Of a stretch of 64,000 bases of DNA, positions 27,524 to 42,232 are shown piece after piece (the first letter of the stretch is position 1; every line of letters begins with the position of its first letter). Location: NCBI RefSeq assembly GCF_024223415.1, contig NZ_CP100500.1. The stretch is one strand, 5' to 3'. The translations under genes and the position numbers were made by a program. Source of the DNA: Escherichia coli. Lineage in GTDB: Bacteria; Pseudomonadota; Gammaproteobacteria; Enterobacterales; Enterobacteriaceae. The notes beneath the pieces are model-generated. The model saw nothing but the letters and a program-made list of their open reading frames with translations, had not been told where the DNA came from and did no database searches.

Positions 27524-28171
27524 TTATTGTGCCCCGCGTTGTTGCAGGAACAGAATGGTGGCTGCCACGCGTGAGCGGACATTGAGTTTGCGCAGCAGAT
27601 TGCGAATATGTACTTTTACTGTCTGCTCGGAAATATTCAACACCGAGGCAATCTGTTTATTTGACAGCCCCTGTGCCAGCTCGTGCAGAACATCCAGCTC
27701 GCGCTCCGTCAGCACGCTGAAGGGATCTTCTTCCGCGCCAAACATTTCACGTTCATGTAAGTACTGATTGACGCGTTCGCTAAAGACTTTGCTGCCTTTC
27801 GCTCCGGCACGAATCGCTTCCAGCAACACTTCCGGGTCGCTGTCTTTCAACAGATAACCGTCTGCGCCTGCGTCTATCAGCGCAAAGACATCGCTGGAGG
27901 CATCTGATACGGTCAGGATAATAATTTGCGCGGTAACGCCATCCCTGCGCAAGGCATTGAGGGTATCCAGGCCACTCATACCTTTCATATTGAGATCCAG
28001 CAAGATCACGTCGATATCCAGTCTATTCGCCAGATCGATCGCGCTCGCGCCGTCGCCTGCTTCGGCGACCACTTCAAAGCCACGATCAAGCTCCAGTAAC
28101 TGACGAACACCGCGTCGCATAAGTGGATGATCATCCACAATCATCACCTGAAAAGGCGTTGCTTCAGGCAT
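27524..28171 (-). CDS. narP: Nitrate/nitrite response regulator NarP
   Basis: ORF 27524-28201; probable start MPEATPFQVMIVDDHPLMRRG (215 aa); receiver plus LuxR HTH. Confidence 0.9.
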   Translation of the reverse strand: MPEATPFQVMIVDDHPLMRRGVRQLLELDRGFEVVAEAGDGASAIDLANRLDIDVILLDLNMKGMSGLDTLNALRRDGVTAQIIILTVSDASSDVFALIDAGADGYLLKDSDPEVLLEAIRAGAKGSKVFSERVNQYLHEREMFGAEEDPFSVLTERELDVLHELAQGLSNKQIASVLNISEQTVKVHIRNLLRKLNVRSRVAATILFLQQRGAQ

Positions 28172-28490
28172 AGTAGTCTCCTGAGGTTTTATTAGAATCA
28201 TTATGTTTGAGCGTAGCGTTGGTAACGCTACCAGGCGCGTGAATGTTACCCCATTTTATGTATGGACATGTAGCGAAAACTACAACCTTGTCGTTCGCTT
28301 TGGCATCATTTTCATTATAAAGACGGAATTTTGCATCAGCTTCTCATCAAGAAAAACAACTAAAAAATCAATCACAATACTTGTGCATTTCTTTAAACAG
28401 TTTTTAAAAACTGACTCCGGGTATGGAGCTATGGGTATTTTCTCTACCCAATGCTTTTAACAGCAATTAATTTCATAGGATGAAAGCTCA

Positions 28491-31082
28491 ATGCATCAAT
28501 CTGGTTCTGTTTCTCTTTGTCGTTCCGCAATATCTGTTCTGGTGGCTACAGCGTTATATTCACCCATAGCATTGGCATCAACAGTTGAGTATGGTGAGAC
28601 AGTTGATGGTGTTGTCCTGGAAAAAGATATCCAGCTGGTTTATGGGACCGCCAATAATACGAAAATCAATCCTGGCGGAGAACAGCATATTAAAGAATTT
28701 GGTATAAGTAGTAATACTGAAATTAACGGCGGGTATCAGTACATTGAAATGAATGGCACCGCAGAATACTCAGTATTAAATGATGGTTATCAAATTGTTC
28801 AAATGGGTGGCGCGGCAAACCAGACTACGCTCAATAATGGTGTGCTACAGGTTTATGGCGCGGCGAATGATCCCACGATTAAAGGCGGGCGCTTAATTGT
28901 TGAAAAAGATGGGATTGCCGTCTTTGCCGCTATCGAAAAGGGAGGATTACTGGAGGTTAAAGACGGGGGATTAGCATTTGCGGTAGATCAGAAGGCAGGC
29001 GGTGCTATTAAAGCAACCACGCGGGTCATGGAGGTATTCGGAACAAACCGTCTCGGTCAGTTCGATATCAAGAATGGAATTGCAAACAATATGCTGTTGG
29101 AAAACGGCGGAAGTTTGCGAGTTGAAGAAAATGACTTCGCTTATAATACTACTGTAGATAGTGGCGGCTTACTGGAGGTTATGGATGGCGGGACTGCAAC
29201 TGGCGTTGATAAAAAAGCAGGCGGAAAATTAATTGTCTCAACGAATGCGCTGGAAGTGAGTGGTACAAACAGTAAAGGCCAATTTAGTATAAAAGATGGT
29301 GTGTCAAAAAATTATGAACTGGATGATGGTTCCGGGCTTATTGTTATGGAGGACACGCAGGCCATTGACACTATCCTTGATGAGCATGCCACTATGCAAT
29401 CGCTGGGAAAGGATACTGGGACGAGAGTGCAGGCAAATGCGGTATATGATCTCGGTCGATCAGATCAGAATGGAAGTATCACGTATTCCTCAAAAGCCAT
29501 CTCTGAAAATATGGTTATCAACAATGGCCGCGCTAACGTCTGGGCTGGCACAATGGTTAACGTGTCAGTCAGAGGGAATGATGGCATTCTTGAGGTCATG
29601 AAGCCGCAAATAAATTATGCACCCGCAATGTTGGTGGGTAAGGTAGTGGTTTCTGAGGGCGCTTCTTTTAGAACGCATGGTGCCGTGGATACCAGCAAAG
29701 CGGACGTTTCGCTCGAAAATAGCGTATGGACCATCATTGCCGATATCACTACGACGAACCAAAACACCCTCCTCAACTTAGCCAACCTTGCGATGTCTGA
29801 CGCAAATGTGATTATGATGGATGAGCCAGTGACTCGTTCATCAGTGACGGCAAGTGCGAAAAATTTCATTACGTTGACCACCAATACCCTGTCGGGAAAC
29901 GGCAATTTTTATATGCGTACCGATATGGCTAATCATCAGAGCGATCAGCTCAACGTCACCGGTCAGGCAACAGGTGATTTCAAAATATTCGTGACGGACA
30001 CCGGTGCCAGCCCGGCAGCAGGAGATAGCCTTACACTGGTAACAACGGGCGGCGGTGATGCTGCATTTACGTTGGGCAATGCCGGAGGTGTTGTTGATAT
30101 CGGTACGTATGAATATACCTTGCTGGATAATGGCAACCATAGCTGGAGTCTGGCAGAGAATCGCGCGCAAATTACCCCTTCAACCACTGATGTGCTGAAT
30201 ATGGCGGCCGCACAACCGCTGGTATTTGATGCAGAACTGGACACCGTGCGTGAGCGTCTTGGTAGCGTAAAAGGCGTTAGTTACGATACGGCGATGTGGA
30301 GTTCGGCAATTAACACCCGCAACAACGTGACCACTGATGCGGGAGCTGGTTTTGAGCAAACATTGACGGGCCTGACGCTCGGTATCGATAGCCGTTTCTC
30401 CCGTGAAGAAAGCAGCACAATTCGCGGCTTGTTCTTTGGTTACTCTCATTCTGATATTGGTTTTGATCGCGGCGGCAAAGGCAATGTCGATAGCTATACC
30501 CTGGGTGCTTATGCCGGTTGGGAGCATCAGAACGGTGCCTATGTTGATGGGGTGGTGAAAGTTGACCGTTTTGCCAACACCATCCATGGCAAGATGAGTA
30601 ATGGGGCAACAGCGTTTGGAGATTACAATAGTAACGGCGCGGGTGCTCATGTTGAGAGCGGGTTCCGTTGGGTTGACGGATTGTGGAGTGTTAGACCCTA
30701 TCTGGCCTTTACCGGCTTTACCACAGATGGTCAGGACTACACGTTATCAAACGGCATGCGCGCGGACGTGGGAAATACCCGGATATTACGCGCTGAAGCG
30801 GGAACGGCGGTAAGCTATCACATGGACCTGCAAAACGGTACGACGCTGGAACCCTGGCTGAAAGCCGCCGTGCGTCAGGAATACGCCGATTCTAACCAGG
30901 TGAAAGTTAATGACGATGGCAAATTTAATAATGATGTGGCTGGAACCAGTGGCGTTTATCAGGCTGGGATAAGGTCATCGTTTACCCCGACGTTAAGCGG
31001 TCATTTGTCAGTCAGCTATGGCAATGGCGCAGGGGTAGAATCGCCGTGGAATACCCAGGCGGGTGTGGTCTGGACGTTCTGA
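28491..31082 (+). CDS. yejO: Autotransporter YejO (apparently intact; passenger plus C-terminal beta-barrel)
   Basis: 863-aa ORF with signal peptide, repetitive passenger domain and C-terminal barrel ending ...GVVWTF; adjacent to narP as in E. coli. Confidence 0.8.
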   Translation: MHQSGSVSLCRSAISVLVATALYSPIALASTVEYGETVDGVVLEKDIQLVYGTANNTKINPGGEQHIKEFGISSNTEINGGYQYIEMNGTAEYSVLNDGYQIVQMGGAANQTTLNNGVLQVYGAANDPTIKGGRLIVEKDGIAVFAAIEKGGLLEVKDGGLAFAVDQKAGGAIKATTRVMEVFGTNRLGQFDIKNGIANNMLLENGGSLRVEENDFAYNTTVDSGGLLEVMDGGTATGVDKKAGGKLIVSTNALEVSGTNSKGQFSIKDGVSKNYELDDGSGLIVMEDTQAIDTILDEHATMQSLGKDTGTRVQANAVYDLGRSDQNGSITYSSKAISENMVINNGRANVWAGTMVNVSVRGNDGILEVMKPQINYAPAMLVGKVVVSEGASFRTHGAVDTSKADVSLENSVWTIIADITTTNQNTLLNLANLAMSDANVIMMDEPVTRSSVTASAKNFITLTTNTLSGNGNFYMRTDMANHQSDQLNVTGQATGDFKIFVTDTGASPAAGDSLTLVTTGGGDAAFTLGNAGGVVDIGTYEYTLLDNGNHSWSLAENRAQITPSTTDVLNMAAAQPLVFDAELDTVRERLGSVKGVSYDTAMWSSAINTRNNVTTDAGAGFEQTLTGLTLGIDSRFSREESSTIRGLFFGYSHSDIGFDRGGKGNVDSYTLGAYAGWEHQNGAYVDGVVKVDRFANTIHGKMSNGATAFGDYNSNGAGAHVESGFRWVDGLWSVRPYLAFTGFTTDGQDYTLSNGMRADVGNTRILRAEAGTAVSYHMDLQNGTTLEPWLKAAVRQEYADSNQVKVNDDGKFNNDVAGTSGVYQAGIRSSFTPTLSGHLSVSYGNGAGVESPWNTQAGVVWTF

Positions 31083-31143
31083 TAACAGACAATAAACAGG
31101 CCGTGATGTGTCGCGGTCTGTTTATCGAATTAAATGCAGATAT

Positions 31144-31176
31144 AAAAAAACCAACCTTTACGGTTGGTTTTTTTTG
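31144..31176. terminator. Terminator hairpin after yejO
   Basis: aaaaaaaccaacctttacggttggtttttttt. Confidence 0.6.
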
Positions 31177-31183
31177 GGATTTT

Positions 31184-31196
31184 TGGTCCACGAGAG
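31184..31196. other. Putative distal att site (degenerate repeat of tRNA-Pro 3' end)
   Basis: tggtccacgagag versus tRNA 3' end tggtcggcacgagagg; imperfect, so the exact boundary is uncertain. Confidence 0.35.
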
Positions 31197-31257
31197 TAGT
31201 TTAATTGAGTGTGTAACCACATGATTTTAAATAATATGCTTGATTCAACTTTTAAAT

Positions 31258-31284
31258 CGTATAACCAAACGTATAACTAAAATC
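31258..31284. promoter_or_regulatory. Putative integrase arm-type repeats (left island end)
   Basis: cgtataaccaaacgtataactaaaatc; same motif recurs at 42233-42290 next to int. Confidence 0.4.
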
Positions 31285-31447
31285 ATTTGCTGAAAAAGTG
31301 TACAATTTAAAGGCGAGTTTTCCCAGAGGTTTATTAAACTACGAAAATTTCGTAGTTTGTGAATATATTCCGGCCTGCTGGTTAACAGTCCTCAGATGTG
31401 AGGGATGTAGCCAGCGCAATTTTGCGCTTTGCTTTAATCTCAGTCAG

Positions 31448-31729
31448 TTATCGCCGTAACCGCTCCGGCTTCTTCCAGTGGTACGTAATTTTTTCTTTCT
31501 CCCGATACAGTTCAACGCGGCGATTGTAGGCCAGCATTTCCAGAACGCGGATCCGTATGTCGCGCATATCCACGCCGTTAAGCTCAATACCGTCACGGCG
31601 CATCACCTCAGCAACCACACGCGCATAATTTTCGGCGGTCACGCTGTCCGGCTGCGTGGCCTGTTCGTCAGCCTGCTGGCTGATTCCGGCAACGCGACGG
31701 ATTAATCGCAGTAGTTCGGCTTCTGTCAT
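31448..31729 (-). CDS. Hypothetical protein, cos-adjacent
   Basis: 93-aa ORF, plausible composition; no family recognised. Confidence 0.45.
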   Translation of the reverse strand: MTEAELLRLIRRVAGISQQADEQATQPDSVTAENYARVVAEVMRRDGIELNGVDMRDIRIRVLEMLAYNRRVELYREKEKITYHWKKPERLRR

Positions 31730-31761
31730 TGTGCCCCCATCGTTCTGATAGTCTGGTGTCG

Positions 31762-31836
31762 TCGGGTCCTTCCTGGAATTATGGCCCGTTACGGGGCGTC
31801 GACCTCGCGGTTTTTCGCTATTTATGAGATTTTTTG
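31762..31836 (+). other. Lambda-like cos site, copy 1 (cosQ-cosN-cosB start, + orientation)
   Basis: cgggtccttcctgg...cccgttacg|GGGCGTCGACCT|cgcggtttttcgctatttatgag resembles lambda ACGGGTCCTTTCCGG...GGTTACG|GGGCGGCGACCT|CGCGGGTTTTCGCTATTTATGAAAA (lambda sequence from memory). Confidence 0.6.
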
Positions 31837-32285
31837 AGGGGGTGGTTGTTGTTTAATTGTTTGGTATATCTAATTGATAAGTAAGGTAAAAATAAAATAA
31901 ATACAACAACCTTACGGTGTATTTTGATGTCATTAATGTGAAAAAATTCAATGATATCAAATGGTTTTGTAAAAACATATGGTTGTTGTATCGCGTATTT
32001 GATGGCGTAACAGAAAGTGATTTTTAACTTTACCGCTCTGTAACTACGGATTATTCCATGCTGGCACGGAGAACGGCTACGGCATGACGCCACCCAGCCT
32101 ATACAGAACAGTAAAGCCGATAAATTGTTAATCACGCGCAGCAATGCGTGTGATTTTTGCACACTTCCGGTTAACGGGTACGATGTCCGGTTTGTTTGTA
32201 CATTTTTTGCACATGTCCGGTTCGCAGAAAGCATGTTTTTATATTTTTCATATAGTTAACTTGCAGAGAAACCGGACATGGATCC

Positions 32286-32360
32286 CGAAAAATTTTCATA
32301 AATAGTGAAAACGCGCGAGGTCGACGCCCCGTAACGGGTCCACATGCCGGAAAGGACCCG
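32286..32360 (-). other. Lambda-like cos site, copy 2 (inverted; reads cosQ-cosN-cosB on the minus strand)
   Basis: Minus strand reads cgggtcctttccggcatgtggacccgttacg|GGGCGTCGACCT|cgcgcgttttcactatttatgaaaattttt; closer to lambda than copy 1. Confidence 0.65.
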
Positions 32361-32384
32361 CAAAAAAAGCCGGATTTCTCCGGC
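32361..32384 (-). terminator. Terminator after the capsid-module operon
   Basis: Minus strand gccggagaaatccggc followed by a T-run. Confidence 0.5.
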
Positions 32385-32390
32385 CTTGTC

Positions 32391-32804
32391 TCAGATGGTT
32401 TTCAGTATGCGATCGATGTTGCCGTCATCGACCGGGTTTCTGCCATCGTATGCCATGCCAGCTGATACGGCTTTCGGGCTGTGCATGTCCATAAAGTTTT
32501 CAAAGGCTGAAGTAAGCTGTGGTGCAACCTTCGGGCGTTCCTGCTCTATGGTCATGCTAAGGATGCTTTTAGCCGTACCAACATCGATACAAGGCACGTT
32601 AGCCATTGCACGTAACAGCGGCTGGTAGTCGTCAGATTCATGAAGCGCCATAATCGCATCAGCGCGCTGCTTGTCCTGTTCTTCCAGTTTGTTTAGTCGG
32701 TGTATGGCCTCGTAGGTTGATAAACCTCTGTCAGCCATTGCCCGCGCTTCGGCTTTAAATTTACTCGCCAGCGGTAGCGTCATGATACTTTCATTCGTTG
32801 CCAT
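32391..32804 (-). CDS. Hypothetical protein, last gene of the capsid-module operon
   Basis: 137-aa ORF immediately downstream of the gpD-like gene; no family recognised. Confidence 0.55.
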   Translation of the reverse strand: MATNESIMTLPLASKFKAEARAMADRGLSTYEAIHRLNKLEEQDKQRADAIMALHESDDYQPLLRAMANVPCIDVGTAKSILSMTIEQERPKVAPQLTSAFENFMDMHSPKAVSAGMAYDGRNPVDDGNIDRILKTI

Positions 32805-32816
32805 CGTTCCCCCTGC

Positions 32817-33152
32817 TTATCGGGCCAGCGGCTGAACGGATACGCCGGAACCCGCAAAGGCGGCGCATTTTTTCGCATCGGTGTCGACGCTGTCAGGCCA
32901 GTTAACGGCGGCAATATTGAATATCCCCGTTTTGTAACACTGTGCTGATTTCTGCTTTGACGTGTCCACGGGGTGCGAAGTCAGATAAACAGCTTTGCCA
33001 GATTCCTGACCATCCCACGCCTTAAACTCGCCATTGTCTGCCAGCATCAGCGGGGTAAATTCCTGAATAACGCCAGCATCAGCGGCAAAATGTACCAGCG
33101 TCGTGGATACCTGCTGGCTGCCTGCAAATAACTCAATATATGGAGCGTCCAT
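32817..33152 (-). CDS. Head decoration protein, lambda gpD-like
   Basis: 111 aa; conserved blocks shared with lambda gpD as recalled (TPLMLxD...AWDG...YKxGxF...WP...KKxAFAG). Confidence 0.65.
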   Translation of the reverse strand: MDAPYIELFAGSQQVSTTLVHFAADAGVIQEFTPLMLADNGEFKAWDGQESGKAVYLTSHPVDTSKQKSAQCYKTGIFNIAAVNWPDSVDTDAKKCAAFAGSGVSVQPLAR

Positions 33153-33163
33153 AGAATCCCCCG

Positions 33164-34219
33164 TTAAGCAATTTTGACGGTAACAAATTTGCGAATATCT
33201 GCCGGTACCGGCTGCGGTGCGCTGTGCGTCTGCACGTACTCAATCGCCGGATCGCCGTCCTCAATCCAGTTTTTCGGGTAGTACATGTTTTGCGTTGCGC
33301 CCGTTCTTACCGCTTCCTGATCCATAATCGCACCATATGCCACAAGCCCTTTATTGTTGGTGTTACCCAGGACAAGCAAATCAGGCTCAAGGAAATATTT
33401 TTCGGTGCCGTCGCTGTCAGTGTATTTGCCGGAATAGACGATAAGGGCCAGATCACCAAGATAGCCTTTAAAGCTCACCACTTCGCCCAGGTTTTTACAG
33501 GCCAGCTCGGCGGCGGATTCTGAGCCACGGTAAAGATCGTACAGTTCACGGAATTTTTTAAAGCTGCGTAATGTGCGCCATGCCTCACCGCCCATAATCA
33601 TGACGTTGGCGGGGCAACCTGCCTGATCAGCATAAAGCTCGATGTCATAGATTGGGTCGTGCATGTCTTTATCCTGCTGGGACCATTTTTTACCACTGGC
33701 CTGCTGTATGATGCAGTTTTCCGGTATTTTCCAGTCGATTTCATAGCGTTCTATGCCTTCGCCCTCAATGATGTTTTTTCCGGTCGTTACCGCATTCACC
33801 GCCAGCCATTCCACGCGCGCCTTAATGGCGTTTATCTGGCGGCGCATGTTGCCAGTAATCAGGCGCATACGGCGGTAAGTTGGATCGTTAAGCTGTGCCG
33901 GATCTTCTCCAGCCATGCGCATGATGGTCTTTGTTGGATCGATTTCGTGCTTTGGCTTCATGTAGCCTGGTTTAATCGTGCTGGTTTCGTACCCTTTATC
34001 GCGCTGGACCTGACTACCCACCATAGGAGAACAGAACGCTGACATCGTAACCTCTTCAATGTCCAGGGTGTCCAGCATGATGTTTTGGGTGTTGAAGGTC
34101 GCCACGTTCGGGAAAAACAGCGTGGTAAACAGCGGACTAAATTTAAATTCCGAAATATCCCCGCGATTCAGGTACGCGAAAAGCTGGTTAGTTGTAAGTG
34201 CCGTTGCTTTGCCTGTCAT
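33164..34219 (-). CDS. Major capsid protein, lambda gpE-like
   Basis: 351 aa; blocks shared with lambda gpE as recalled (FKFxPLF, PGYMKPKHE, DPxYRRMR, YSGxY, YPKNW, GDPA). Confidence 0.8.
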   Translation of the reverse strand: MTGKATALTTNQLFAYLNRGDISEFKFSPLFTTLFFPNVATFNTQNIMLDTLDIEEVTMSAFCSPMVGSQVQRDKGYETSTIKPGYMKPKHEIDPTKTIMRMAGEDPAQLNDPTYRRMRLITGNMRRQINAIKARVEWLAVNAVTTGKNIIEGEGIERYEIDWKIPENCIIQQASGKKWSQQDKDMHDPIYDIELYADQAGCPANVMIMGGEAWRTLRSFKKFRELYDLYRGSESAAELACKNLGEVVSFKGYLGDLALIVYSGKYTDSDGTEKYFLEPDLLVLGNTNNKGLVAYGAIMDQEAVRTGATQNMYYPKNWIEDGDPAIEYVQTHSAPQPVPADIRKFVTVKIA

Positions 34220-34425
34220 TATTCACCTCCGTGAACCTGATTGATACCCAGCGCCGCACGTAAATAGGTACGCACCTGCCAGCCTGTTGACGGCTCAACC
34301 ATCGCCAGCGGATCAAGTCCTGCCGCAATGCCTGCTTTTACATTCTGCTGGTGGCGTTCCTTGAGCGCCTCCACGATGTCGGGGCTTATGTAGACCGTCA
34401 CCCCGCCTTTTTTCTCTTCTGCCAT
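34219..34425 (-). CDS. Hypothetical small protein, first gene of the capsid-module operon
   Basis: 68-aa ORF whose stop overlaps the gpE-like start. Confidence 0.45.
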   Translation of the reverse strand: MAEEKKGGVTVYISPDIVEALKERHQQNVKAGIAAGLDPLAMVEPSTGWQVRTYLRAALGINQVHGGE

Positions 34426-34592
34426 AGTCAGAAATTCCTCTTTGACTTAAAAAATCATAACTGGATGTTCATCCAGTCCTGATTATAATCATGATTGCAT
34501 TTTGCGCAACAATATTGAGTTACGTTGCAAATTATGAAATGATTATCCCGATCATGTGTGCCAGTGCACCATAAAAAACCTCGTATACAAAA

Positions 34593-34660
34593 GCCCGATA
34601 AGCCCCCTGTGACCTTATCGGGCTTTTTTTAGGCGTAAAAAAGCCGGATTGCTCCGGCTT
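34593..34660. terminator. Pair of terminator hairpins between the finO-like gene and the capsid operon
   Basis: gcccgataagccccctgtgaccttatcgggc + T-run, and agccggattgctccggct preceded by an A-run. Confidence 0.5.
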
Positions 34661-34683
34661 CGTCTCTTCATGTGGTCAGGGTT

Positions 34684-35268
34684 TTATGCTTTCCGTACGC
34701 CCGAGGAACTGGCATTTTTCAGAATAATATTATGCCCTGCTGGTGGCTTACCGTTATGCTTATTTTCTGCCTTCATGTTTCTGCGCTCCTGCTGTTTTTT
34801 CTTCATCTCATCCAGTCGCTTCCCCGCGTTCAACTGGTGCTCCTGTGTCACCTCCCCGCACGGATGGCCTTTCAGGTCGTAACGCACGCCACCAGCCATC
34901 AGGGAACGGTAATATCGCACTGAACTGACATAATACGCCAGCGTTGCGCGAAGCGCTCCCTGACCTAATGAAATACCTCTCGCAGTAATATCCTCCATCA
35001 GGTCATCAAATATGCCAACCTTAAGCGGTCTGGGCGATTCCTGGCTGAAAAGTTCAGGCCAGAGCGCGGCAAGGCGTTCAACGCGTCTGATATTTTTTTT
35101 CCGGCTCTTTTCTGATTTGCGTTTTGCTGCCGTCTTCTGTTGTGTTTTCTGCTCGCGGCTCTGCTTTTGCGCTGGTGTGGTTTTATCCGGCTGTTCAGCC
35201 TCCTGCGTCTTTTTCTGCGGTGTGCCGTATATGCCTTTTGGTTTTCGGTTAATGGTCAGCTTTGTCAT
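34684..35268 (-). CDS. FinO/ProQ-domain RNA-binding protein with a basic N-terminal extension
   Basis: Likely start MTKLTINRKPK (SD ggggagaa upstream); C-terminal region shares blocks with the ProQ N-terminal FinO domain as recalled (LWPELF, RPLKVGIFDDL, DLxGxPCGE). Confidence 0.65.
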   Translation of the reverse strand: MTKLTINRKPKGIYGTPQKKTQEAEQPDKTTPAQKQSREQKTQQKTAAKRKSEKSRKKNIRRVERLAALWPELFSQESPRPLKVGIFDDLMEDITARGISLGQGALRATLAYYVSSVRYYRSLMAGGVRYDLKGHPCGEVTQEHQLNAGKRLDEMKKKQQERRNMKAENKHNGKPPAGHNIILKNASSSGVRKA

Positions 35269-35347
35269 GTTCTCCCCCTTTGTGCTGTTCCACCAGCGGC
35301 ATCTGCTACCCCGTGTCGCTCCCGCTGGTGTCGTGTTTCCCCGCCTG

Positions 35348-35668
35348 TTAATAACCGTCATCATTTACGTTATCAGGGTAATCACGCCATATTTCATCAG
35401 TAAGCGACGGTAGCCCCATCTGTTGTATTGTCCTGTCTGCGGCCCTTCTGACTGCGTGAACATCATAACGGTTTTCAGGTATCGGGCGCTTTGCCTTCCT
35501 GATACATTCCCTTGCTCTCATTGCCGCAAGTTCTCTGTGCCTGTCTTCCTGAAGAGTAATCATCACATCCTGCCACCTTCTGGCAGCCCGTCGCCACAGT
35601 CCCCTGCTCTCGAGTTCTTCTGCTGTCGCGTCGCTTATTGTCCGGTTCTTCGGTGTGCTGTTGTTCAT
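35348..35668 (-). CDS. PerC-family transcriptional activator-like protein
   Basis: 106 aa with AEELESRGLWRRAARRWQDVM, resembling the conserved PerC/Pch motif as recalled. Confidence 0.5.
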   Translation of the reverse strand: MNNSTPKNRTISDATAEELESRGLWRRAARRWQDVMITLQEDRHRELAAMRARECIRKAKRPIPENRYDVHAVRRAADRTIQQMGLPSLTDEIWRDYPDNVNDDGY

Positions 35669-35685
35669 GTTGCTCCCCGCCTGAT

Positions 35686-36096
35686 TCAGAAGGGTATATC
35701 ATCTCCGTAGGGGTCATCGCCTCCCGCTGGTGGCTCATTCCCCTGTGTGCCTGTGGTTTTGCGTCTGTTCCCGCCATGACGTGCCGCACGCGCACTGATT
35801 ACGCTGTCTGCGATAACCTGCCAGCCCTGCCGCGTTTCCCCGTTCTGTCCGGTCCACTGGCTCACCTGCATGTTACCCGCCACGCTCAGGAGTTCACCTT
35901 TGCGGTGCTTTGCCAGTGCTTCGGCCTGTCTGCCAAACGCCAGCACAGATAACCACATCGTCGCCGTTCCGTCATCTGCCTGGCTGCACGGAAGGGGGAC
36001 CGCCATACTCGCCATCGCCATTTGTGTCCCCTTGCTGGTGGTCTTTAACTGCGGGTCAGCCACCAGCCGCCCGTAAGCCGCTATCTGTGCTGTCAT
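35686..36096 (-). CDS. ssb: Single-stranded DNA-binding protein (phage-type SSB)
   Basis: 136 aa; OB-fold pattern (GRLVADPQLK...WLSVLAFGRQAE...) and acidic C-terminal tail GDDIPF typical of SSB. Confidence 0.7.
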   Translation of the reverse strand: MTAQIAAYGRLVADPQLKTTSKGTQMAMASMAVPLPCSQADDGTATMWLSVLAFGRQAEALAKHRKGELLSVAGNMQVSQWTGQNGETRQGWQVIADSVISARAARHGGNRRKTTGTQGNEPPAGGDDPYGDDIPF

Positions 36097-36344
36097 GCTG
36101 TATGCTCTCCGGTTTTAACGTTGATGGTTGTCACCTGTTCCGCTCCGGCAATCTCCCGTTCTGTCAGCGTGGCAAAATTTGCCGCTACCGTTGTCATGAA
36201 TGCGCTTATCAGTTCGGGATGTGCTTTCGCGTATCCTTCTCCCGCGTGGCGGTCTATCGTTCTGATTGCCACCTTTAAGGCGTGCTCTGTCATGTCTAAC
36301 GCTTTATATTTTGGCGCTGTCTTATCTCTGGTTTTTCTGTTCAT
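36093..36344 (-). CDS. Hypothetical protein
   Basis: ORF 36093-36374; likely start MNRKTRDK, just downstream of the iterons. Confidence 0.45.
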   Translation of the reverse strand: MNRKTRDKTAPKYKALDMTEHALKVAIRTIDRHAGEGYAKAHPELISAFMTTVAANFATLTEREIAGAEQVTTINVKTGEHTA

Positions 36345-36560
36345 TCCCCACCACTCCCCACTTTTGCTCCCCACTTTTTAAATTCCCCACTTGCTCCCCA
36401 CCTCGTTTTTTGAGTGAATCTAATGCTTTGTTTTTCATTGCGTTTTTTACTCCCCACTTTTTTGGATGTATACAGGTGGGAAAGTGGGGAATTATGTTTC
36501 AATTTTGTTAAATTCCCCACTCTCCCCACTTTTACTACCCACTTTTTACAGTGGGTAAAC
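36344..36560. repeat. Iteron cluster, putative island replication origin
   Basis: At least nine direct and inverted copies of (a/c)TCCCCAC(TTTT), e.g. actccccactttt, gctccccactttt, attccccacttg, plus inverted gtgggaaagtgggga, next to the primase/helicase gene. Confidence 0.6.
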
Positions 36561-37961
36561 ATCATCCCCATCGACACAAATCACGCCGTCTTTTTCCAGC
36601 TTGGACAGCCAGCGCCGGAAGTGCTTCATCTCATACCCCAGCTTTTTCATATCGTCGCGGAGAAGGGCGATAGTGCATGGCTCTTTGTGTGCCGTCCGCG
36701 TTCTGATGCACTGCCATAGCGCGGTATGGTTTTCCGTCTTGTTGCCTGCCTCCTCGATGCGCTCCAGTTCAACGGGAGAGCGCGGCTTATCAACCACCAC
36801 CAGCGACGTGATTAACTCCCCGTCAGCGTCGGTAAAAAGCTCCACCACGCGTAAATCGTAGGCGGCCTCTTTCAGTTCCTCCGCGTCCTTCATTTTGGTG
36901 CAGGATATAACCAGGGCTTTACTGTCTGCACCTTCTCGGCGAATACGGTATTCAGCGTCCAGAGATGCACGAAATGCACTGGAACCACGCGCCCCCTTTG
37001 TTTCATCCTTGCCGGAATGGTGGACCACCAGCACCGTGGCCCCTGTGCGTCGTTTCAGGTCGTCACATCCACGGATAAACGCCCCCATATCCCGCGCGTC
37101 ATTTTCATCATTACCGCCAAAGCAACGCGCCAGCGTATCCAGAATAATCATGCGTACCGGTTTACCCGTTTCCCGTTCAACCTGGCGGGAAGCGATAACC
37201 ATTTCATCAACATCAAGCGGGGCTGCCGGAAAAATCGGGCGGTTTACCAGGTACAGATTTTTCACCCGTTCATCATTAACGATTTCCCATGCCTTGATAC
37301 GACGGGGGACACCAATGCCACCTTCACCGACAACATACATCACCGAACCATGCGCCACCCTGCGGCCTCCCCAGTGGCGCCCCGTGGCAACATGACACGC
37401 CCAGGAACACGCAAGGAATGATTTATAGGAACCGCTCGCACCGTATGTGCTGCACAATGAATTAGCCGGAATCACGCCCTTAACGACATAATCAAGCTGT
37501 GTGTCGTATCCTGCAGATCCAATGCTCATGGGTAGCGTGGTTTTTCGCTGGCTGTATTGCTCATCAGTAAGTATTTCCCCGCGCTCTGCCTGTTCGCGGA
37601 TCCGTTGCAGGTAGTCGCGCCATTCCTCCCGCTTCTGGCTGTGCATTCCCTCGGGGTAATAACTCGCATCCCGTATACCTGCCGCCGCCAGTTTTTGCCC
37701 GATGGCATTAATATTTGATGGCTTGATGTGGCCTGCCTTGTACAGCCGGACACAATAGCGACCATCGTCGATAATTTTCAGGTCTGCCAGTTCGTCAAGC
37801 TGACTGTCTCCCAGCCATACTGGCGGGACGTTATCGCCAGCAAGTCGCCCGTCCTGTTCCTGCCATTGTTTTGCGTGCGCCCAGGCATCACTACCTGCAA
37901 AAATAATGACTTCGGTCATTTTGTTGTGTGGCTGTTTTTTTAAGTTCGGTGCCAGTTTCAT
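36546..37961 (-). CDS. Replication protein: putative primase/helicase (RecA-like NTPase, AAA_25/RepA-like)
   Basis: 471 aa; P-loop-like GASGSYKSF and Walker B-like MIILDTLARCF; position typical of satellite pri-rep genes. Confidence 0.55.
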   Translation of the reverse strand: MKLAPNLKKQPHNKMTEVIIFAGSDAWAHAKQWQEQDGRLAGDNVPPVWLGDSQLDELADLKIIDDGRYCVRLYKAGHIKPSNINAIGQKLAAAGIRDASYYPEGMHSQKREEWRDYLQRIREQAERGEILTDEQYSQRKTTLPMSIGSAGYDTQLDYVVKGVIPANSLCSTYGASGSYKSFLACSWACHVATGRHWGGRRVAHGSVMYVVGEGGIGVPRRIKAWEIVNDERVKNLYLVNRPIFPAAPLDVDEMVIASRQVERETGKPVRMIILDTLARCFGGNDENDARDMGAFIRGCDDLKRRTGATVLVVHHSGKDETKGARGSSAFRASLDAEYRIRREGADSKALVISCTKMKDAEELKEAAYDLRVVELFTDADGELITSLVVVDKPRSPVELERIEEAGNKTENHTALWQCIRTRTAHKEPCTIALLRDDMKKLGYEMKHFRRWLSKLEKDGVICVDGDDVYPL

Positions 37962-38257
37962 TTTTTATCCCTGAATCCGTTAATCATGGTTTTCATCTTC
38001 TGAATATTGGCGCGTGCTTTCTCCCTGCTGGTTGGTTTACTGCGGGGCGCTGCCTGTACCAGAGAAAAATCACGCCGGAACTGATAAACAGGCATCACGC
38101 AGTCATATTCGTAGCCATCACGGCGGTAAGTGATGCGCCGTTCTGCCACGCCTTTAATCGTTACCGTACCGCCGTAGTTATCACGGAAAATATCGCCGGG
38201 ACGGATTTCAGGCCGAGCGGGGCCGCTGGCAGTAAAGCCAGAATTTTTCTTTTTCAT
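37958..38257 (-). CDS. Hypothetical protein
   Basis: 99-aa ORF overlapping the primase start (ATGA). Confidence 0.45.
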   Translation of the reverse strand: MKKKNSGFTASGPARPEIRPGDIFRDNYGGTVTIKGVAERRITYRRDGYEYDCVMPVYQFRRDFSLVQAAPRSKPTSREKARANIQKMKTMINGFRDKK

Positions 38258-38261
38258 GGTT

Positions 38262-38462
38262 TTATTTTCCTGTCAGTGATTCCGGCTTTATTCCGGCGCG
38301 AATACAGGCTTCAGAAAAAAAAGCCAGAGAACCAATAACCTCATTATTTCTAAGGCGGCATTGCGATTTCACTTTCCCTTTATCCAGGAATATCAAAACG
38401 CGCCCCGTATAATCAGATGGCACATTAAGCACTACAGGTAAGTGCGCTTCATGATTATTCAT
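38262..38462 (-). CDS. Hypothetical small protein
   Basis: ORF 38262-38531; likely start MNNHEAH (66 aa). Confidence 0.35.
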   Translation of the reverse strand: MNNHEAHLPVVLNVPSDYTGRVLIFLDKGKVKSQCRLRNNEVIGSLAFFSEACIRAGIKPESLTGK

Positions 38463-38742
38463 GGCTAACCACCTCCTGGAATTTTCTTCTGTAACGCGCC
38501 TCTGCCACATATTCAGCATAGTCCGACGCAATATTGAGAATATCGCTACCCGTTCCTGAATGTTCGGCGGTTTCCAGTAAAAAACATGCAGCTTTTACCA
38601 TGTCAGCAACACATAACAGCGCAATATCTGTATCTTCCGGTGTGCCATCAAATTCCTGTTTCAGGGCATTAAAACGATCATCACGCATAACCCCATATTC
38701 ACAATCAGCAATCAGGATGGCTTTGGCCTCATTCAGTGCCAT
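38455..38742 (-). CDS. Hypothetical protein (C-terminal, protein-like part of a 595-aa stop-free frame; true start uncertain, could extend to about 38898)
   Basis: Last ~95 codons of frame 38455-40242 are acidic and helix-like; upstream part looks non-protein-like. Confidence 0.4.
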   Translation of the reverse strand: MALNEAKAILIADCEYGVMRDDRFNALKQEFDGTPEDTDIALLCVADMVKAACFLLETAEHSGTGSDILNIASDYAEYVAEARYRRKFQEVVSHE

Positions 38743-38896
38743 ATCAGCGGTAAGCTGTGCGTAGGCCAGCAAATGCGGGATTATTGCCCCTGTATATTCC
38801 GGCTCTCTGATAATGTGGTCGGATGTGTTGATTAAATAGTTTGTGCGAAAAATGCACCTGTAACCATCAGTTAACAACGGATATACAGGGGGGACC

Positions 38897-39067
38897 ATGA
38901 ATGATAAGGGGGTGCCGTTTGATGTGCTCCTGCAAAAGCTGAATGCTGCACGCGCCGCAAGGGAACGTGAGCGCATGAGTAATAACCCTGTCCCTCCTGA
39001 ATTACCTCGCCCTGAACATTTTCCGCTTGAGGATTTCATCAGGGGACGAATCCGAACAAAACGATAA
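38897..39067 (+). CDS. Small ORF a (56 aa); paralogous to ORF c
   Basis: MNDKGVPFDVLLQKLNAARAARERERMSNNPVPPELPRPEHFPLEDFIRGRIRTKR; G-rich SD-like sequence upstream; shares the FPLE-FI / RERER motif with ORF c. Confidence 0.3.
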   Translation: MNDKGVPFDVLLQKLNAARAARERERMSNNPVPPELPRPEHFPLEDFIRGRIRTKR

Positions 39068-39310
39068 CCGCCGCCGTGATATGAGGCATCACGACGCAAT
39101 GCATTACAGGTGAGCACCATGAACAAATCCATATTATCCCCCACAGTTCTGGACGTAAACACAAAGCAGCGACAGATATTATTACGCGCCGTCATTAAAG
39201 CCAGACACGAGAAATTAAACCAAATCTTAAAATAAGATACGCCGCTACCGCTGTAAGTCTTCATCAGAAACAGAAAACGCCAGAGCAGATGAGCACGGAG
39301 GTAACTCTTT

Positions 39311-39505
39311 ATGAAAATAAACGAATCAGGGGAAATTACCGAAGCCAGCGTGGTACGCCAGCGGAGGCGGGAACGACGGGTACGGCCCCCCGCGCCATCC
39401 GATAATTTCCCGCTTGAGCGCTTCATCAGTGAACGGCCCCGCATACGCTGGAACGGCACAACCCCATACCCCGAGGAGAGACAGACAAAAAACAAACAGC
39501 GATGA
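39311..39505 (+). CDS. Small ORF c (64 aa); paralogous to ORF a
   Basis: SD ggagg 8 nt upstream; contains RRRERRVRPPAPSDNFPLERFISERP. Confidence 0.3.
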   Translation: MKINESGEITEASVVRQRRRERRVRPPAPSDNFPLERFISERPRIRWNGTTPYPEERQTKNKQR

Positions 39506-39681
39506 TGAAATCTGGAGGCCAATACCATCACGCAGCCATCAGGAGATTGCTGACGCGCTTCCTGTTCGCTGGTGGCCTCGATGGTAATCACGCGCGGTTG
39601 TGCAGTGCTCAGGGCGATAAAACGCCACACAAAGGCCGTTTGTGTGTGCGCAAGGCGTGGGGTATGCTGTGTTCCAGCCAT
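39460..39681 (-). CDS. Icd-like (host cell division inhibitor-like) protein; 3' end undefined because the frame has no stop until 38455
   Basis: Strong SD (aggag, 9-nt spacer) before ATG at 39681; MAGTQHTPRLAHTQTAFVWRFIALS...TSEQEARQQ... resembles Icd-like proteins of satellite elements as recalled. Confidence 0.35.
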
Positions 39682-39808
39682 AATCGTTACTCCTGTTAAC
39701 GGTTTGGTTAGACGCCCTGCATGTGTGCCACCACTGCGGGGCGTTGTTTTTGTGGTGTCATTGGTATACATTGTCACCTTAATGGCATTATCACTACAGA
39801 GGTTTATC

Positions 39809-39985
39809 ATGTCAACCAATGACAACAAAAAAGAAAGATTTTCCGTACAACTACGCCTAGACGCAGATTTGTTCGAGCGTTTAAGTATTGCCATGAAAGA
39901 AGATGGCGACGATAACCGATCTGGATGGATCAAAAGGCTTTTACGACGCGAATTAGATAAACGCGGCATTGAGTCAAAAAGCTGA
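39809..39985 (+). CDS. Ribbon-helix-helix (Arc/Mnt-like) DNA-binding protein
   Basis: 58 aa; ERFSVQLRLDADLFERLSIAMKEDGDDNRSGWIKRLLRRE parallels the Arc repressor pattern (beta-strand then two helices) as recalled. Confidence 0.5.
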   Translation: MSTNDNKKERFSVQLRLDADLFERLSIAMKEDGDDNRSGWIKRLLRRELDKRGIESKS

Positions 39986-40078
39986 CAGCCAACCAGCAAG
40001 CCAGCACACTGATCACATTGCCCACCAGCCGCAAATGTGGCATTGTTGGTGATGCTTTTGTTTTCCCTTGTTCCCACT

Positions 40079-40108
40079 GGCGACCCTTTTGCGGTCGCCT
40101 TTGTTTTG
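40079..40108 (+). terminator. Rho-independent terminator after the RHH gene
   Basis: ggcgacccttttgcggtcgcc + tttgtttt. Confidence 0.55.
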
Positions 40109-40202
40109 CCTGTTATCCGGCAATTGTGGCGCTTCGCCACACGGTTTATATAACCCCACTGCTCAGATTCATTTTTTGCGCAGTAGGTTAATTGTTCGCA
40201 AG

Positions 40203-40231
40203 GGCGGCTCCTTATCGGGGCCGCTTTTTTC
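40203..40231 (+). terminator. Second plus-strand terminator before alpA
   Basis: gcggctccttatcggggccgc + tttttt. Confidence 0.5.
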
Positions 40232-40256
40232 GTGTTTGTCATATCTGTGATACCCG

Positions 40257-40463
40257 TTAAGCAGCCGTTCCGCGTGCTTCCTGTTCGCGTTCTTTCTGCC
40301 AGGCCAACACATCATCCTCATACCATCCGCGACGGCGTAAACCAACGCGAAAACCCTGCGGAAATTCTCCGGCGTTGATCATGCTTTGCAGCGTGCTGTC
40401 TGCCTTGATGTGGATAATTTTTTTTACTTCCTGGCGAAAGATAATTTTTCTGATTGCTTCCAT
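40257..40463 (-). CDS. alpA: AlpA-family regulator / excisionase-like protein
   Basis: 68 aa; HTH region LQSMINAGEFPQGFRVGLRRRGWYEDDVLAW typical of AlpA-family proteins. Confidence 0.7.
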   Translation of the reverse strand: MEAIRKIIFRQEVKKIIHIKADSTLQSMINAGEFPQGFRVGLRRRGWYEDDVLAWQKEREQEARGTAA

Positions 40464-40593
40464 CGTGATTTACCTTGTGAATCCGGTGTATTCCGGTGAC
40501 AAATACGGTAAATCATCGGATATGGGTAAAAACAGTTCCCACCGTTTTTAAACGGTATACACCGTTTTTTATATTGATGATTTGAAATGGAAT

Positions 40594-40622
40594 TATAAAA
40601 AAAGCGGCATTTCTGCCGCTTC
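40594..40622 (-). terminator. Terminator between the int-proximal ORF and alpA
   Basis: Minus strand agcggcagaaatgccgct followed by a T-run. Confidence 0.45.
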
Positions 40623-40630
40623 CAGGATTG

Positions 40631-40882: not shown

Positions 40883-40959
40883 GGCCTTGTCGTTAAATTT
40901 GATGCAATTATACGACGGTTTTACATGGTTTTCGTAGTTTTTACTGGTTTTCTGTACAG

Positions 40960-42219: not shown

Positions 42220-42232
42220 GAAAAAACAGGGT

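What the first reader, a model, noticed from the sequence alone, without database searches (positions are those of the whole stretch)
31336..31358. Near-perfect 23-bp palindrome close to the island left end
aaactacgaaaatttcgtagttt (11-bp arms around a single central base) lies between the left arm-type repeats and the 93-aa ORF in otherwise non-coding DNA. It is a plausible dimeric regulator binding site or part of attP architecture.
Basis: seen in the sequence. Interest (0 to 1): 0.3.

Follow-up and report, generated by a model that had tools for sequence, protein, structure and literature searches.

The report
Antirepressor-gene palindrome kept by a phage satellite
The palindrome is real and is a copy of a 21-24 bp dyad element that temperate phages keep, base for base, inside their antirepressor genes. 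This phage satellite and several hundred relatives keep it in non-coding DNA, so it is a selected recognition element of unknown partner, not part of the integration site.

Summary
Confirmed: AAACTACGAAA-A-TTTCGTAGTTT at 31336-31358 has perfect 11-bp arms; 0.03 such palindromes are expected per 64 kb.

It lies in an 11.2-kb EcCICFT073-type cos satellite (PICI) inserted at tRNA-Pro, 90 nt past the last gene and about 140 bp from the left att repeat.

It is not attP architecture. Relatives with other integrases and att sites keep it, at roughly 140 to 940 bp from the island end. The flanks recombine freely. Two of 23 palindrome columns vary, against 19-20 of 30 in each flank.

The same 24 bp lies inside the coding sequence (LNYENFVV) of Ant/KilAC antirepressor genes in Salmonella, Klebsiella, Hafnia and Xenorhabdus phages. 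There, 0 of 6 palindrome codons vary synonymously, against 38 of 39 elsewhere. A second Ant family (P1 Ant1/2, Stx2a phages) keeps the inner TACGAAA-N-TTTCGTA while the four outer pairs covary (AAC/GTT, ACC/GGT, GGT/ACC, CAC/GTG), changing amino acids.

The satellite's left flank is a decayed piece of such a gene.

Selection therefore preserves the dyad itself. I slightly favour a protein-recognised stem-loop over a duplex operator; the binder is unknown. EcCICFT073 itself lacks the element, so it is dispensable for the basic satellite cycle.

The parts
31336..31358 (.). The palindrome AAACTACGAAA-A-TTTCGTAGTTT (11+1+11).
   Evidence: Read directly. Rarity. Conserved in relatives. Best covariance-model hit in the window at 39.8 bits, with no second copy.
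31340..31354 (.). Inner core TACGAAA-N-TTTCGTA. It is almost invariant in every context examined: only pair 6 (A to G) and the innermost pair depart.
   Evidence: Alignment A7 and the pair counts. The four outer pairs (31336-31339 with 31355-31358) are the ones that covary in phage genes.
31334..31357 (+). 24-bp block TTAAACTACGAAAATTTCGTAGTT, identical to codons 52-59 (LNYENFVV) of phage Ant/KilAC genes. The plus strand is the antirepressor-sense strand.
   Evidence: 100% blastn matches in Salmonella, Klebsiella and Hafnia phages. Position in the genes. Codon statistics.
31359..31370 (+). Conserved right-flank block GTGAATATATTC. It contains a 10-bp palindrome GAATATATTC (31361-31370) and TATATT (31364-31369), which lies 17 nt after the left arm and could be a -10 hexamer.
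   Evidence: L005 has an unrelated right flank yet carries TATCAT at the same offset. The promoter scan found no sigma-70 site here, so this is inference only.
31390..31440 (+). Two further hairpins between the palindrome and the 93-aa gene: CCTCAgatgTGAGG (31390-31403) and AGCGCAattttGCGCT (31413-31428). The second is followed by a T-rich tail and looks like a terminator on the plus strand.
   Evidence: Terminator scan. Folds with z about -4 on both strands. Stem changes seen in relatives.
31448..31729 (-). 93-aa ORF (phrog_1561, function unknown). It is the last gene of the island and the neighbour of the palindrome in all but one of the palindrome-bearing relatives examined.
   Evidence: It is also present in EcCICFT073, which lacks the palindrome, so gene and palindrome are not an obligate pair.
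31184..31196 (.). Left att repeat TGGTCCACGAGAG, an imperfect copy of the tRNA-Pro 3' end at 42420-42434. It marks the left end of the island.
   Evidence: read directly.
31258..31277 (.). Integrase arm-type repeats CGTATAAC, two copies here. The partner copies lie at 42232-42289.
   Evidence: I22-I24. They are replaced by other repeats (AACTACACC) in the island with a different integrase.
40930..40940 (-). Third exact copy of the 11-mer AAACTACGAAA, overlapping the -35 position of a TATAAT promoter between int and the 83-aa ORF. Judged not to belong to the element.
   Evidence: Found. In relatives of this module that are 75-84% identical it reads TTTGCATCGCT, TTTGCACTGGT or TTTCCGTCGGT, while the -10 stays invariant.

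Best explanation
The palindrome is a selected, portable dyad element that the satellite inherited together with a fragment of a phage antirepressor (Ant/Rha-type) gene. In the phage genes selection acts on the nucleic acid itself. It preserves the base-pairing potential of a 9-11 bp stem with a fixed apical part, (U/T)ACGAAA-N-UUUCGUA, and a freely covarying lower stem. My preferred mechanism is that the element works as a stem-loop, in the transcript or in transiently single-stranded DNA of the antirepressor-sense strand. An unidentified protein would recognise its apical part. In phages this would control the antirepressor message. In the satellite the element lies about 90 nt beyond the last gene of the island, so read-through transcripts would carry the same stem-loop. 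In this island the palindrome is perfect, so either strand would form it. The satellite could then share, or titrate, the factor that acts on antirepressor genes of co-resident temperate phages. Shown: the sequence, its conservation, its descent from an antirepressor gene, nucleotide-level selection, and covariation. Inferred: that it acts as a hairpin rather than as duplex DNA, that a trans-acting factor exists, and any role in cross-talk. It is an accessory feature, not needed for integration, replication or packaging.
For: 1. Conservation in the satellites. Two of 23 palindrome columns vary, against 19/30 (left) and 20/30 (right) flank columns, Fisher p about 5e-5 and 2e-5. Left- and right-flank types occur in many combinations.
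2. Descent. The 30 nt to the left of the palindrome in most satellites are 57-67% identical, ungapped, to the phage coding sequence upstream of the palindrome. Background is 20-30%. The palindrome itself stayed 96-100% identical, so it has been constrained since the split.
3. Selection in phage genes. In 17 distinct family-1 genes (66-99% nucleotide identity), 38 of 39 degenerate codons for invariant residues vary synonymously outside the palindrome and 0 of 6 vary inside it (naive p about 3e-10 treating codons as independent).
4. Covariation. Across 26 distinct sequences the four outer pairs change on both sides in 24 cells, and 94% of cells are paired. None of 500 shuffles reaches the observed score, and slid partners give 28-47% paired. 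Codon 53 and codon 59 are reverse complements of each other: AAC/GTT, ACC/GGT, GGT/ACC, CAC/GTG. These changes alter the protein.
5. The centre base is A, T or C, and the innermost pair can open (ATC and AAA variants), as expected for a loop.
6. All three independent one-sided departures give G.U on the antirepressor-sense strand. They would give A.C on the other strand.
7. The element survives alone after the gene has decayed or been truncated in Xenorhabdus and in one metagenome bin labelled Acinetobacter.
8. The stem is stable, -8.9 to -13.1 kcal/mol.
Against: No binder is known.
No transcript data exist for either strand of the satellite region, and the promoter scan found nothing nearby.
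About half of the satellites carry the A-to-G variant. That variant would be an A.C mismatch in the transcript of the island's own operon.
Flipping the centre base changes an RNA loop but leaves duplex DNA unchanged, which suits a symmetric DNA-binding dimer better.
The inner seven pairs stay invariant even in non-coding copies, which pairing alone does not require.
The three G.U cases are too few to be significant (p about 0.1-0.25).
EcCICFT073, a fully functional satellite, lacks the element.
Family-1 genes, whose outer arms the satellite copy matches (the outermost pair aside), are rare in E. coli: 1 of 5426 genomes holds most of the query.
Confidence: 0.4

Rival explanations
1. It is a duplex operator for a symmetric dimer. 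The 7-1-7 palindrome would be bound as double-stranded DNA by a helix-turn-helix or winged-helix dimer. The binder would be either the Rha-like N-terminal domain of the Ant-type proteins themselves, regulating their own gene, or the regulator that silences antirepressor genes. The satellite copy would then be a sensor or a sponge for that phage protein. In this island it may overlap the -35 and spacer of a plus-strand promoter (ACGAAA, 17 nt, TATATT).
For: The dyad is perfect and has an odd centre, the usual form for repressor operators.
The centre base flips between A and T with no other change, which is neutral for duplex DNA.
The element travels with Rha/Ant-type genes in three arrangements. 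It lies inside two N-terminal domain families. It lies 70-93 nt upstream of the annotated start of a canonical Rha-family gene in Hafnia phage Meifeng. It lies next to truncated canonical Rha N-termini.
The N-terminal domain model has a helix-helix-beta-hairpin-helix-helix order, and the palindrome encodes the hairpin; outer-arm classes go with different hairpin sequences.
Precedent recalled from memory: HK022 Roi binds a site within its own gene, next to an IHF site (Clerget and Boccard 1996; the citation is confirmed, but the text was not available).
Perfect IHF consensus sites cluster around the palindrome in many satellites.
TATATT here, and TATCAT in the unrelated right flank of L005, lie at the same 17-nt offset.
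Against: Symmetric covariation of the four outer pairs through at least five combinations would need repeated co-evolution of the binder.
G.T departures recur.
There is only one site per genome, so no set of operators.
HK022 Roi has a different N-terminus and its gene holds no such palindrome.
This window has no IHF consensus near the site.
No sigma-70 promoter passes the scan.
Confidence: 0.3
2. In the satellite it is only a relic and a recombination junction. A fragment of an antirepressor gene was captured in the variable, att-proximal cargo region. The palindrome persists because it is the only shared homology at which flanks are exchanged, or because palindromes provoke breakage and template switching. 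It has no present function in the satellite.
For: The left flank is a decayed gene fragment.
Flank types are reassorted around the palindrome.
Homology with relatives starts or stops within a few bases of it.
In Xenorhabdus a gene is broken 5 nt after it, and short isolated copies exist.
PHROG families of 58 aa correspond to antirepressor N-termini that end just before it.
EcCICFT073 lacks a ~120-bp segment that holds it, lying between two 24-bp direct repeats.
Against: A neutral relic should have diverged like its flank, which has lost about 35-40% identity. With that divergence the chance of one change or fewer in 23 nt is about 3e-4 (my calculation from the values).
Gene conversion from phage copies is unlikely. 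Family-1 genes are nearly absent from E. coli, and there is no homology on the right side.
In the phage genes the element is clearly under selection.
Confidence: 0.17
3. It is an end-of-operon signal. The hairpin would terminate, pause or stabilise the 3' end of the island's long minus-strand operon, or insulate it from att and from the neighbouring yejO gene.
For: It lies about 90 nt after the stop codon of the last gene, in a run of three or four hairpins. The region is more structured than shuffled sequence on both strands, z about -4.
Against: The stem is A+U-rich and no U-tract follows on either strand. The terminator scan lists its neighbours but not this hairpin.
The idea does not explain the identical element inside phage coding sequences.
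The A-to-G variant weakens the minus-strand hairpin in about half of the satellites.
Confidence: 0.07
4. It is part of attP or the intasome, or a binding site for the island's own integrase, AlpA or RHH protein.
For: It is close to the left att repeat and to the arm-type repeats in this window.
Against: The element is kept with unrelated integrases and att sites, whose arm-type repeats differ.
Its distance to the island end varies about sevenfold.
It occurs in phage genes and in Xenorhabdus.
The int-proximal copy of the half-site is not conserved.
Confidence: 0.03

Closest known systems
HK022 Roi binding site within the roi gene (Clerget and Boccard 1996, J Bacteriol 178:4077; content recalled from memory, citation seen)
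   Same: A cis site lies inside the coding sequence of a phage Rha/Ant-type (KilAC-domain) regulator gene. In that case it is linked to an IHF site. Many satellites have IHF consensus sites beside the palindrome.
   Different: HK022 Roi has a different N-terminal domain, and the HK022 region examined (28000-40751, which includes roi) contains no such palindrome. Binding of any protein to the present element is untested. This window has no IHF consensus nearby.
Operators inside coding regions, such as the PurR site in purB or lac O2 in lacZ (own knowledge)
   Same: A palindromic protein-binding site is embedded in an open reading frame, so that nucleotides are constrained beyond what the protein needs.
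   Different: Those sites show no covariation of symmetric positions across homologues and are not found as portable copies in other mobile elements.
Protein-recognised stem-loops with a fixed apical part and a covarying lower stem, such as lambda boxB or the MS2 operator. Aca2, which binds both an inverted repeat in DNA and the hairpin it forms in the mRNA, is also relevant (own knowledge).
   Same: The pattern of conservation matches: invariant upper stem, free centre, covarying base of the stem. The element lies in a transcribed region in phages.
   Different: No sequence similarity, no known binder, no Rfam family. In the satellite it is not known which strand, if any, is transcribed.
Repressor and antisense-RNA control of antirepressor genes: P22 Arc/Mnt operators and sar RNA, P1 C4 RNA (own knowledge)
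   Same: These are dedicated cis elements that keep an antirepressor gene silent. The present element occurs in P1-type ant1/ant2.
   Different: All of those act at the 5' end or upstream of the gene. This element lies about 150 nt inside the gene (codon 153 of Ant1), and none of the known systems uses this sequence.
EcCICFT073 cos1/cos2 packaging sites (PMC6739421)
   Same: They are the other conserved cis elements at this end of the same kind of satellite. cos1 lies about 440 bp from the palindrome.
   Different: The cos sites resemble lambda cos and are needed for transfer. The palindrome has no similarity to cos and is absent from EcCICFT073 itself.

Membership tests
attP / intasome accessory site | The site goes with one integrase type and its arm-type repeats. 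| tested here: not met
   The same palindrome occurs with three integrase/att types, and the arm repeats differ (CGTATAAC versus AACTACACC).
attP / intasome accessory site | Fixed spacing to the att core. | tested here: not met
   About 140 bp here, roughly 400-460 bp in L001 and roughly 940 bp in L004.
Intrinsic (Rho-independent) terminator | G+C-rich stem followed by a U-tract. | tested here: not met
   It is not among the 7 terminator-like sites. The stem has 2 G-C pairs of 10, and no T-run follows on either strand.
Palindromic operator of a dimeric DNA-binding protein | Dyad symmetry of the right size (14-23 bp). | tested here: met
   11+1+11 perfect here; 7+1+7 nearly invariant across all contexts.
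Palindromic operator of a dimeric DNA-binding protein | A cognate protein that binds it. | not testable with these tools
Palindromic operator of a dimeric DNA-binding protein | Overlap with a promoter that it controls. | tested here: inconclusive
   No sigma-70 site passes the scan. TATATT and TATCAT lie 17 nt after the left arm in two unrelated flanks. In phages the site is inside a gene.
Structured cis-acting RNA element | Base pairs kept through compensatory changes. | tested here: met
   Four pairs have changes on both sides, in 24 cells. Covariation score is 0.267 against 0.095 in shuffles (0 of 500 reach it). Slid partners give 28-47% paired against 94%.
Structured cis-acting RNA element | Transcribed on the strand that folds. 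| tested here: inconclusive
   In phages the element lies within annotated coding sequences, on the sense strand. For the satellite no transcript data are available. This window's perfect palindrome folds equally on both strands.
Structured cis-acting RNA element | Membership of a described RNA family. | tested here: not met
   No Rfam match in 30900-42600 at E up to 1, apart from the tRNA and two chance hits elsewhere.
Site-specific recombination core (inverted binding sites around a short overlap) | Junctions fall inside the core, and a recombinase is linked to the site. | tested here: not met
   Homology breaks lie 0-30 nt outside the arms and at varying points. No recombinase is consistently nearby. 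The resolvase in L037 belongs to a Tn3-type transposon on the other side.
EcCICFT073-type cos PICI (the island that holds the palindrome) | Integrase next to an att repeat; AlpA-like regulator; replication helicase with an ori; lambda-type capsid genes; two cos sites. | tested here: met
   Pfam and PHROG hits. tRNA-Pro and the att repeat. cos sequences read and compared with EcCICFT073.
EcCICFT073-type cos PICI (the island that holds the palindrome) | An rpp gene (Nu1-like) between the cos sites. | tested here: not met
   No such ORF lies in 31830-32295; only the last ~25 nt of the gene remain. It is present in L001 (Phage_Nu1 domain), and a 144-aa hypothetical ORF occupies the same position in CFT073.

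The most novel reading that the evidence does not exclude
The 'ant-box' would be a previously undescribed mobile recognition hairpin. Enterobacterial temperate phages write it into the reading frame of their antirepressor genes: codon i and codon i+6 are kept as reverse complements, at the cost of amino-acid changes. Phage satellites have captured it so as to listen to, or interfere with, the control of prophage induction in the same cell. It would then be a direct cis link between satellite and helper regulation, and the first case of a satellite copying a regulatory element from inside a helper-type gene.
Probability: 0.2. Interest if true: 0.8.

Novelty: new variant of a known kind. Interest (0 to 1): 0.6.

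Why it matters
How Gram-negative satellites sense their helper phages is still open, and so is how most antirepressor genes are kept silent.

The element is short, sharply defined and strongly selected. It is shared between antirepressor genes, including P1 ant1/ant2 and Stx2a-phage antirepressors, and several hundred E. coli satellites, many of them in Shiga-toxin-producing strains. That gives both questions a concrete handle that can be mutated.

The codon-level covariation is also a clear example of a nucleic-acid signal overriding protein sequence inside a gene.

If the element proves inert in satellites, it still marks the inner edge of their variable cargo region and the point at which flanks are exchanged.

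Tried and rejected
1. Third copy of the half-site at 40930-40940, overlapping the -35 of a TATAAT promoter before the alpA operon. It looked like a second operator, but the 11-mer is not conserved in relatives that are 75-84% identical, while the -10 is.
2. The 93-aa neighbour as binder. It has no family, no solved relative, and only 'hypothetical' E. coli homologues. It shows no similarity to the Ant N-terminal domain. It is present in EcCICFT073, which has no palindrome.
3. Rfam found nothing.
5. HK022 roi has no such palindrome and a different N-terminus. The paper itself could not be read.
6. IHF sites: perfect consensus sites cluster near the palindrome in relatives, but none lies near it in this window.
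7. More copies per genome: a relaxed motif scan and a covariance model found one copy per element. They found none in the CFT073 satellite-plus-prophage locus or in the HK022 region examined.
8. cos or packaging role: no similarity to cos, and the antirepressor gene sits at different map positions in different phages.
9. LexA, CRP, Fis, LacI-family and invertase (hix) sites were compared by eye from memory. None fits.
10. Literature: no held paper contains the sequence. The PICI and P1 papers read do not mention it.

Full report
**The observation**

The sequence aaactacgaaaatttcgtagttt is at 31336-31358 as reported. It has two exactly complementary 11-bp arms around one central A, and the symmetry stops at the flanking bases. 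Perfect palindromes of this size are rare. The 64-kb window holds two with arms of 11 bp or more and a spacer of 3 or less. First-order Markov simulations give 0.03 per window. As single-stranded RNA, either strand forms a 10-bp stem with a 3-nt loop at -8.9 kcal/mol.

**The setting**

The window is E. coli ccmH-narP-yejO, then an island of about 11.2 kb, then tRNA-Pro(GGG) at 42420-42496 on the minus strand. The 3' end of the tRNA (TGGTCGGCACGAGAG, 42420-42434) is repeated imperfectly at 31184-31196.

All island genes but one run on the minus strand:
- integrase (40960-42219)
- an 83-aa ORF
- an AlpA-like protein
- DUF4222
- a RepA-type helicase (36546-37961), with iteron-like repeats next to it
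- SSB, PerC and a ProQ/FinO-domain protein
- lambda gpE-like capsid and gpD-like decoration proteins
- a 137-aa protein
- two lambda-like cos sites in inverted orientation
- a 93-aa protein (31448-31729)

This is the gene order of EcCICFT073, the E. coli cos-type phage-inducible chromosomal island. [quoted passage not shown] The palindrome lies 90 nt beyond the stop codon of the last gene and about 140 bp from the left att repeat. The integrase arm-type repeats CGTATAAC (31258-31277) lie in between.

**Conservation in related islands, and why it is not attP**

A search of 5426 complete E. coli genomes found the 93-aa gene region in 1552 genomes and the 151 bp around the palindrome in 749. About two thirds of the evenly spaced rows include the palindrome, which suggests roughly 490 genomes; this is a rough count.

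In most of these matches homology starts 1-6 bp before the palindrome. The element is kept in islands at phoQ/roxA, which have a different integrase and different arm repeats. It is also kept in an island at tRNA-Ile, and in an island at the same yejO site whose right flank is unrelated. Its distance to the island end runs from about 140 bp to roughly 940 bp.

Among 16 distinct satellite sequences, 2 of 23 palindrome columns vary, against 19 of 30 on the left and 20 of 30 on the right. Left- and right-flank types occur in many combinations. The common variant is A to G at position 6 of the left arm.

A site that is independent of integrase type and of spacing cannot be part of the attP architecture.

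**The same element inside phage genes**

The 24 bp TTAAACTACGAAAATTTCGTAGTT have 100% matches in Salmonella phages (ST65, Vi II-E1), Klebsiella phages (pKp383) and Hafnia phage Pocitis76. In each case they lie at codons 52-59 (LNYENFVV) of a roughly 232-aa protein with a C-terminal KilAC/ANT antirepressor domain.

In 17 distinct genes of this family (66-99% nucleotide identity), 38 of 39 degenerate codons for invariant residues vary synonymously outside the palindrome. Inside it, 0 of 6 do (naive p about 3e-10).

A second, related family has the motif (H/Y/T/G)YE(I/N)FV. It includes P1-type Ant1/Ant2, an Stx2a-phage antirepressor and Klebsiella phage antirepressors. It carries the same element with the centre base flipped.

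In 80 further loci of the second family the outer arms change in step: AAC/GTT, ACC/GGT, GGT/ACC, CAC/GTG. Codon 53 and codon 59 are therefore kept as reverse complements, although this changes both amino acids. A formal count on 26 distinct sequences gives:
- 94% of cells paired
- four pairs with changes on both sides, in 24 cells
- none of 500 shuffles reaching the observed covariation score
- 28-47% paired when the partners are slid by 1-3 columns
- the inner seven pairs (TACGAAA/TTTCGTA) almost invariant

In Hafnia phage Meifeng the element lies 70-93 nt upstream of the annotated start of a canonical Rha-family regulator gene.

The element occurs once per genome in Pocitis76 and once in this window.

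**Descent of the satellite copy**

In most satellites the 30 nt to the left of the palindrome are 57-67% identical, without gaps, to the phage coding sequence upstream of it. Other flanks give 20-30%. The satellite copy is therefore the remnant of an antirepressor gene fragment.

In this window and in L005 that remnant has been replaced up to the edge of the palindrome. The remnant has lost about 35-40% of its identity, while the palindrome has lost 0-4%. Under neutrality the chance of that is about 3e-4 (my calculation).

Conversion from resident phage genes is an unlikely cause. Only 1 of 5426 E. coli genomes holds most of a family-1 gene.

In Xenorhabdus the element is found in several states: within an intact gene; at the break of a truncated gene; within a decayed gene; in a second variant form (GTTTTACGAAACTTTCGTAAAAC) upstream of an ORF; and as an isolated 35-bp piece. 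A bare 21-bp copy lies in a metagenome bin labelled Acinetobacter.

**What it most likely is**

The data show selection on the dyad itself. They do not name the partner.

Several points favour a hairpin, in RNA or in single-stranded DNA:
- The lower stem covaries freely through at least five combinations.
- The centre is free, and the innermost pair can open.
- All three independent one-sided changes give G.U on the antirepressor-sense strand.

Other points favour a duplex operator:
- The 7-1-7 form is typical of operators.
- The centre flip is neutral for duplex DNA.
- The inner core stays invariant even in non-coding copies.
- The element is persistently linked to Rha/Ant-type genes.
- HK022 Roi offers a precedent (recalled from memory; the citation was seen).
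- IHF consensus sites cluster beside the element in many satellites, though not in this window.

I put the hairpin reading at 0.40 and the operator reading at 0.30. A functionless relic and recombination junction gets 0.17, an end-of-operon signal 0.07, and attP, integrase or AlpA binding 0.03.

In this island TATATT lies 17 nt after the left arm, and a terminator-like hairpin on the plus strand follows at 31413-31440. This could define a short plus-strand RNA under control of the palindrome, but no promoter passes the scan and this is untested.

**Limits**

EcCICFT073, the satellite whose induction, packaging and transfer have been shown experimentally, has the 93-aa gene but not the palindrome. 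Compared with type-c islands it lacks a ~120-bp segment between two 24-bp direct repeats TTYCCGAAAATATCARYGRGTTAG. The element is therefore dispensable for the basic satellite cycle. No paper in the library contains the sequence. Rfam has no family for it.

**Dead ends**

- The exact third copy of the 11-mer at 40930-40940 sits at the -35 of a TATAAT promoter before the alpA operon. It is not conserved in relatives and is probably a chance match.
- The 93-aa protein gave no clue.
- The fold of the Ant N-terminal domain could not be assigned.

**Verdict**

The attP reading is rejected. The regulator-site reading survives only as one of two live mechanisms.

Noticed in passing
window 31786-31830 (+) and 32295-32345 (-): Two lambda-like cosN sites (GGGCGTCGACCT against lambda GGGCGGCGACCT) lie in inverted orientation. 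Each has its own repeat-rich cosB-like side: GGTTGTTGT-type repeats at 31840-31990 and ACCGGACATG-type repeats at 32170-32290. They correspond to the published cos1 and cos2 of EcCICFT073.
   Followed up: partly
window 31830-32295, compared with L146 2590-3270 and L001 13500-14300: The segment between the two cos sites is inverted relative to EcCICFT073 and L001. Recombination between the inverted cos repeats would produce this. The Nu1-like gene at the rpp position is missing except for its last ~25 nt (window about 32093-32115). This satellite therefore seems to lack Rpp, the protein that redirects helper packaging.
   Followed up: partly
window 34684-35364 (-): The island encodes a 226-aa protein with a ProQ/FinO RNA-chaperone domain (Pfam E 2e-26), next to a PerC-family activator and an SSB. 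The RNA partner of a satellite-borne FinO-type protein is unknown. The structured non-coding region at 31330-31445 is one candidate.
   Followed up: no
window 31364-31440 (+): There may be a short plus-strand RNA, antisense to the island's genes. TATATT at 31364-31369 is followed by a long hairpin around CCTCAgatgTGAGG and by the terminator-like AGCGCAattttGCGCT with a T-rich tail. The promoter is not supported by the scan.
   Followed up: partly
L003, L010, L016, L146 3655-3830 and other relatives; degenerate in window 31429-31450: The non-coding DNA around the palindrome is built of repeated units. Each unit is a short G+C hairpin followed by GAAAATATCA(A/G)CNNGTTA, which matches the IHF consensus WATCAANNNNTTR perfectly in many islands. 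There are two or three perfect matches within 700 bp, against about one expected per 32 kb. The last unit overlaps the stop codon of the 93-aa gene.
   Followed up: partly
window 36450-36530: Iteron-like repeats (GGGAAAGTGGGGAATT / AATTCCCCAC, TCCCCACTTTTTTGG) lie directly next to the RepA-type helicase gene. This is probably the island's replication origin.
   Followed up: no
window 40896-40940 (-): A perfect TATAAT, invariant in all relatives, lies 17 nt downstream of the chance 11-mer copy. It sits between the integrase stop and the 83-aa ORF and is the likely promoter of the alpA operon, with a weak -35.
   Followed up: partly
L030 2150-2335 and L032 1758-1946: In Salmonella phage ST65 and Klebsiella phage pKp383, a 61-62-aa ORF just upstream of the palindrome-bearing antirepressor gene is a truncated canonical Rha N-terminus (MSSREIAELTGKRHDHVIRDI). 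PHROG families of 58 aa correspond to antirepressor N-termini that end just before the palindrome. These genes are often broken near it.
   Followed up: partly
L004 1780-1925: The variable region between the att site and the palindrome of the tRNA-Ile island holds a small hydrophobic ORF (MDTLRKGSDLLSARVIAVTGLIAALGNLGLCPIAVVLVCIALVIMLK). It may be a membrane toxin-like cargo gene.
   Followed up: no
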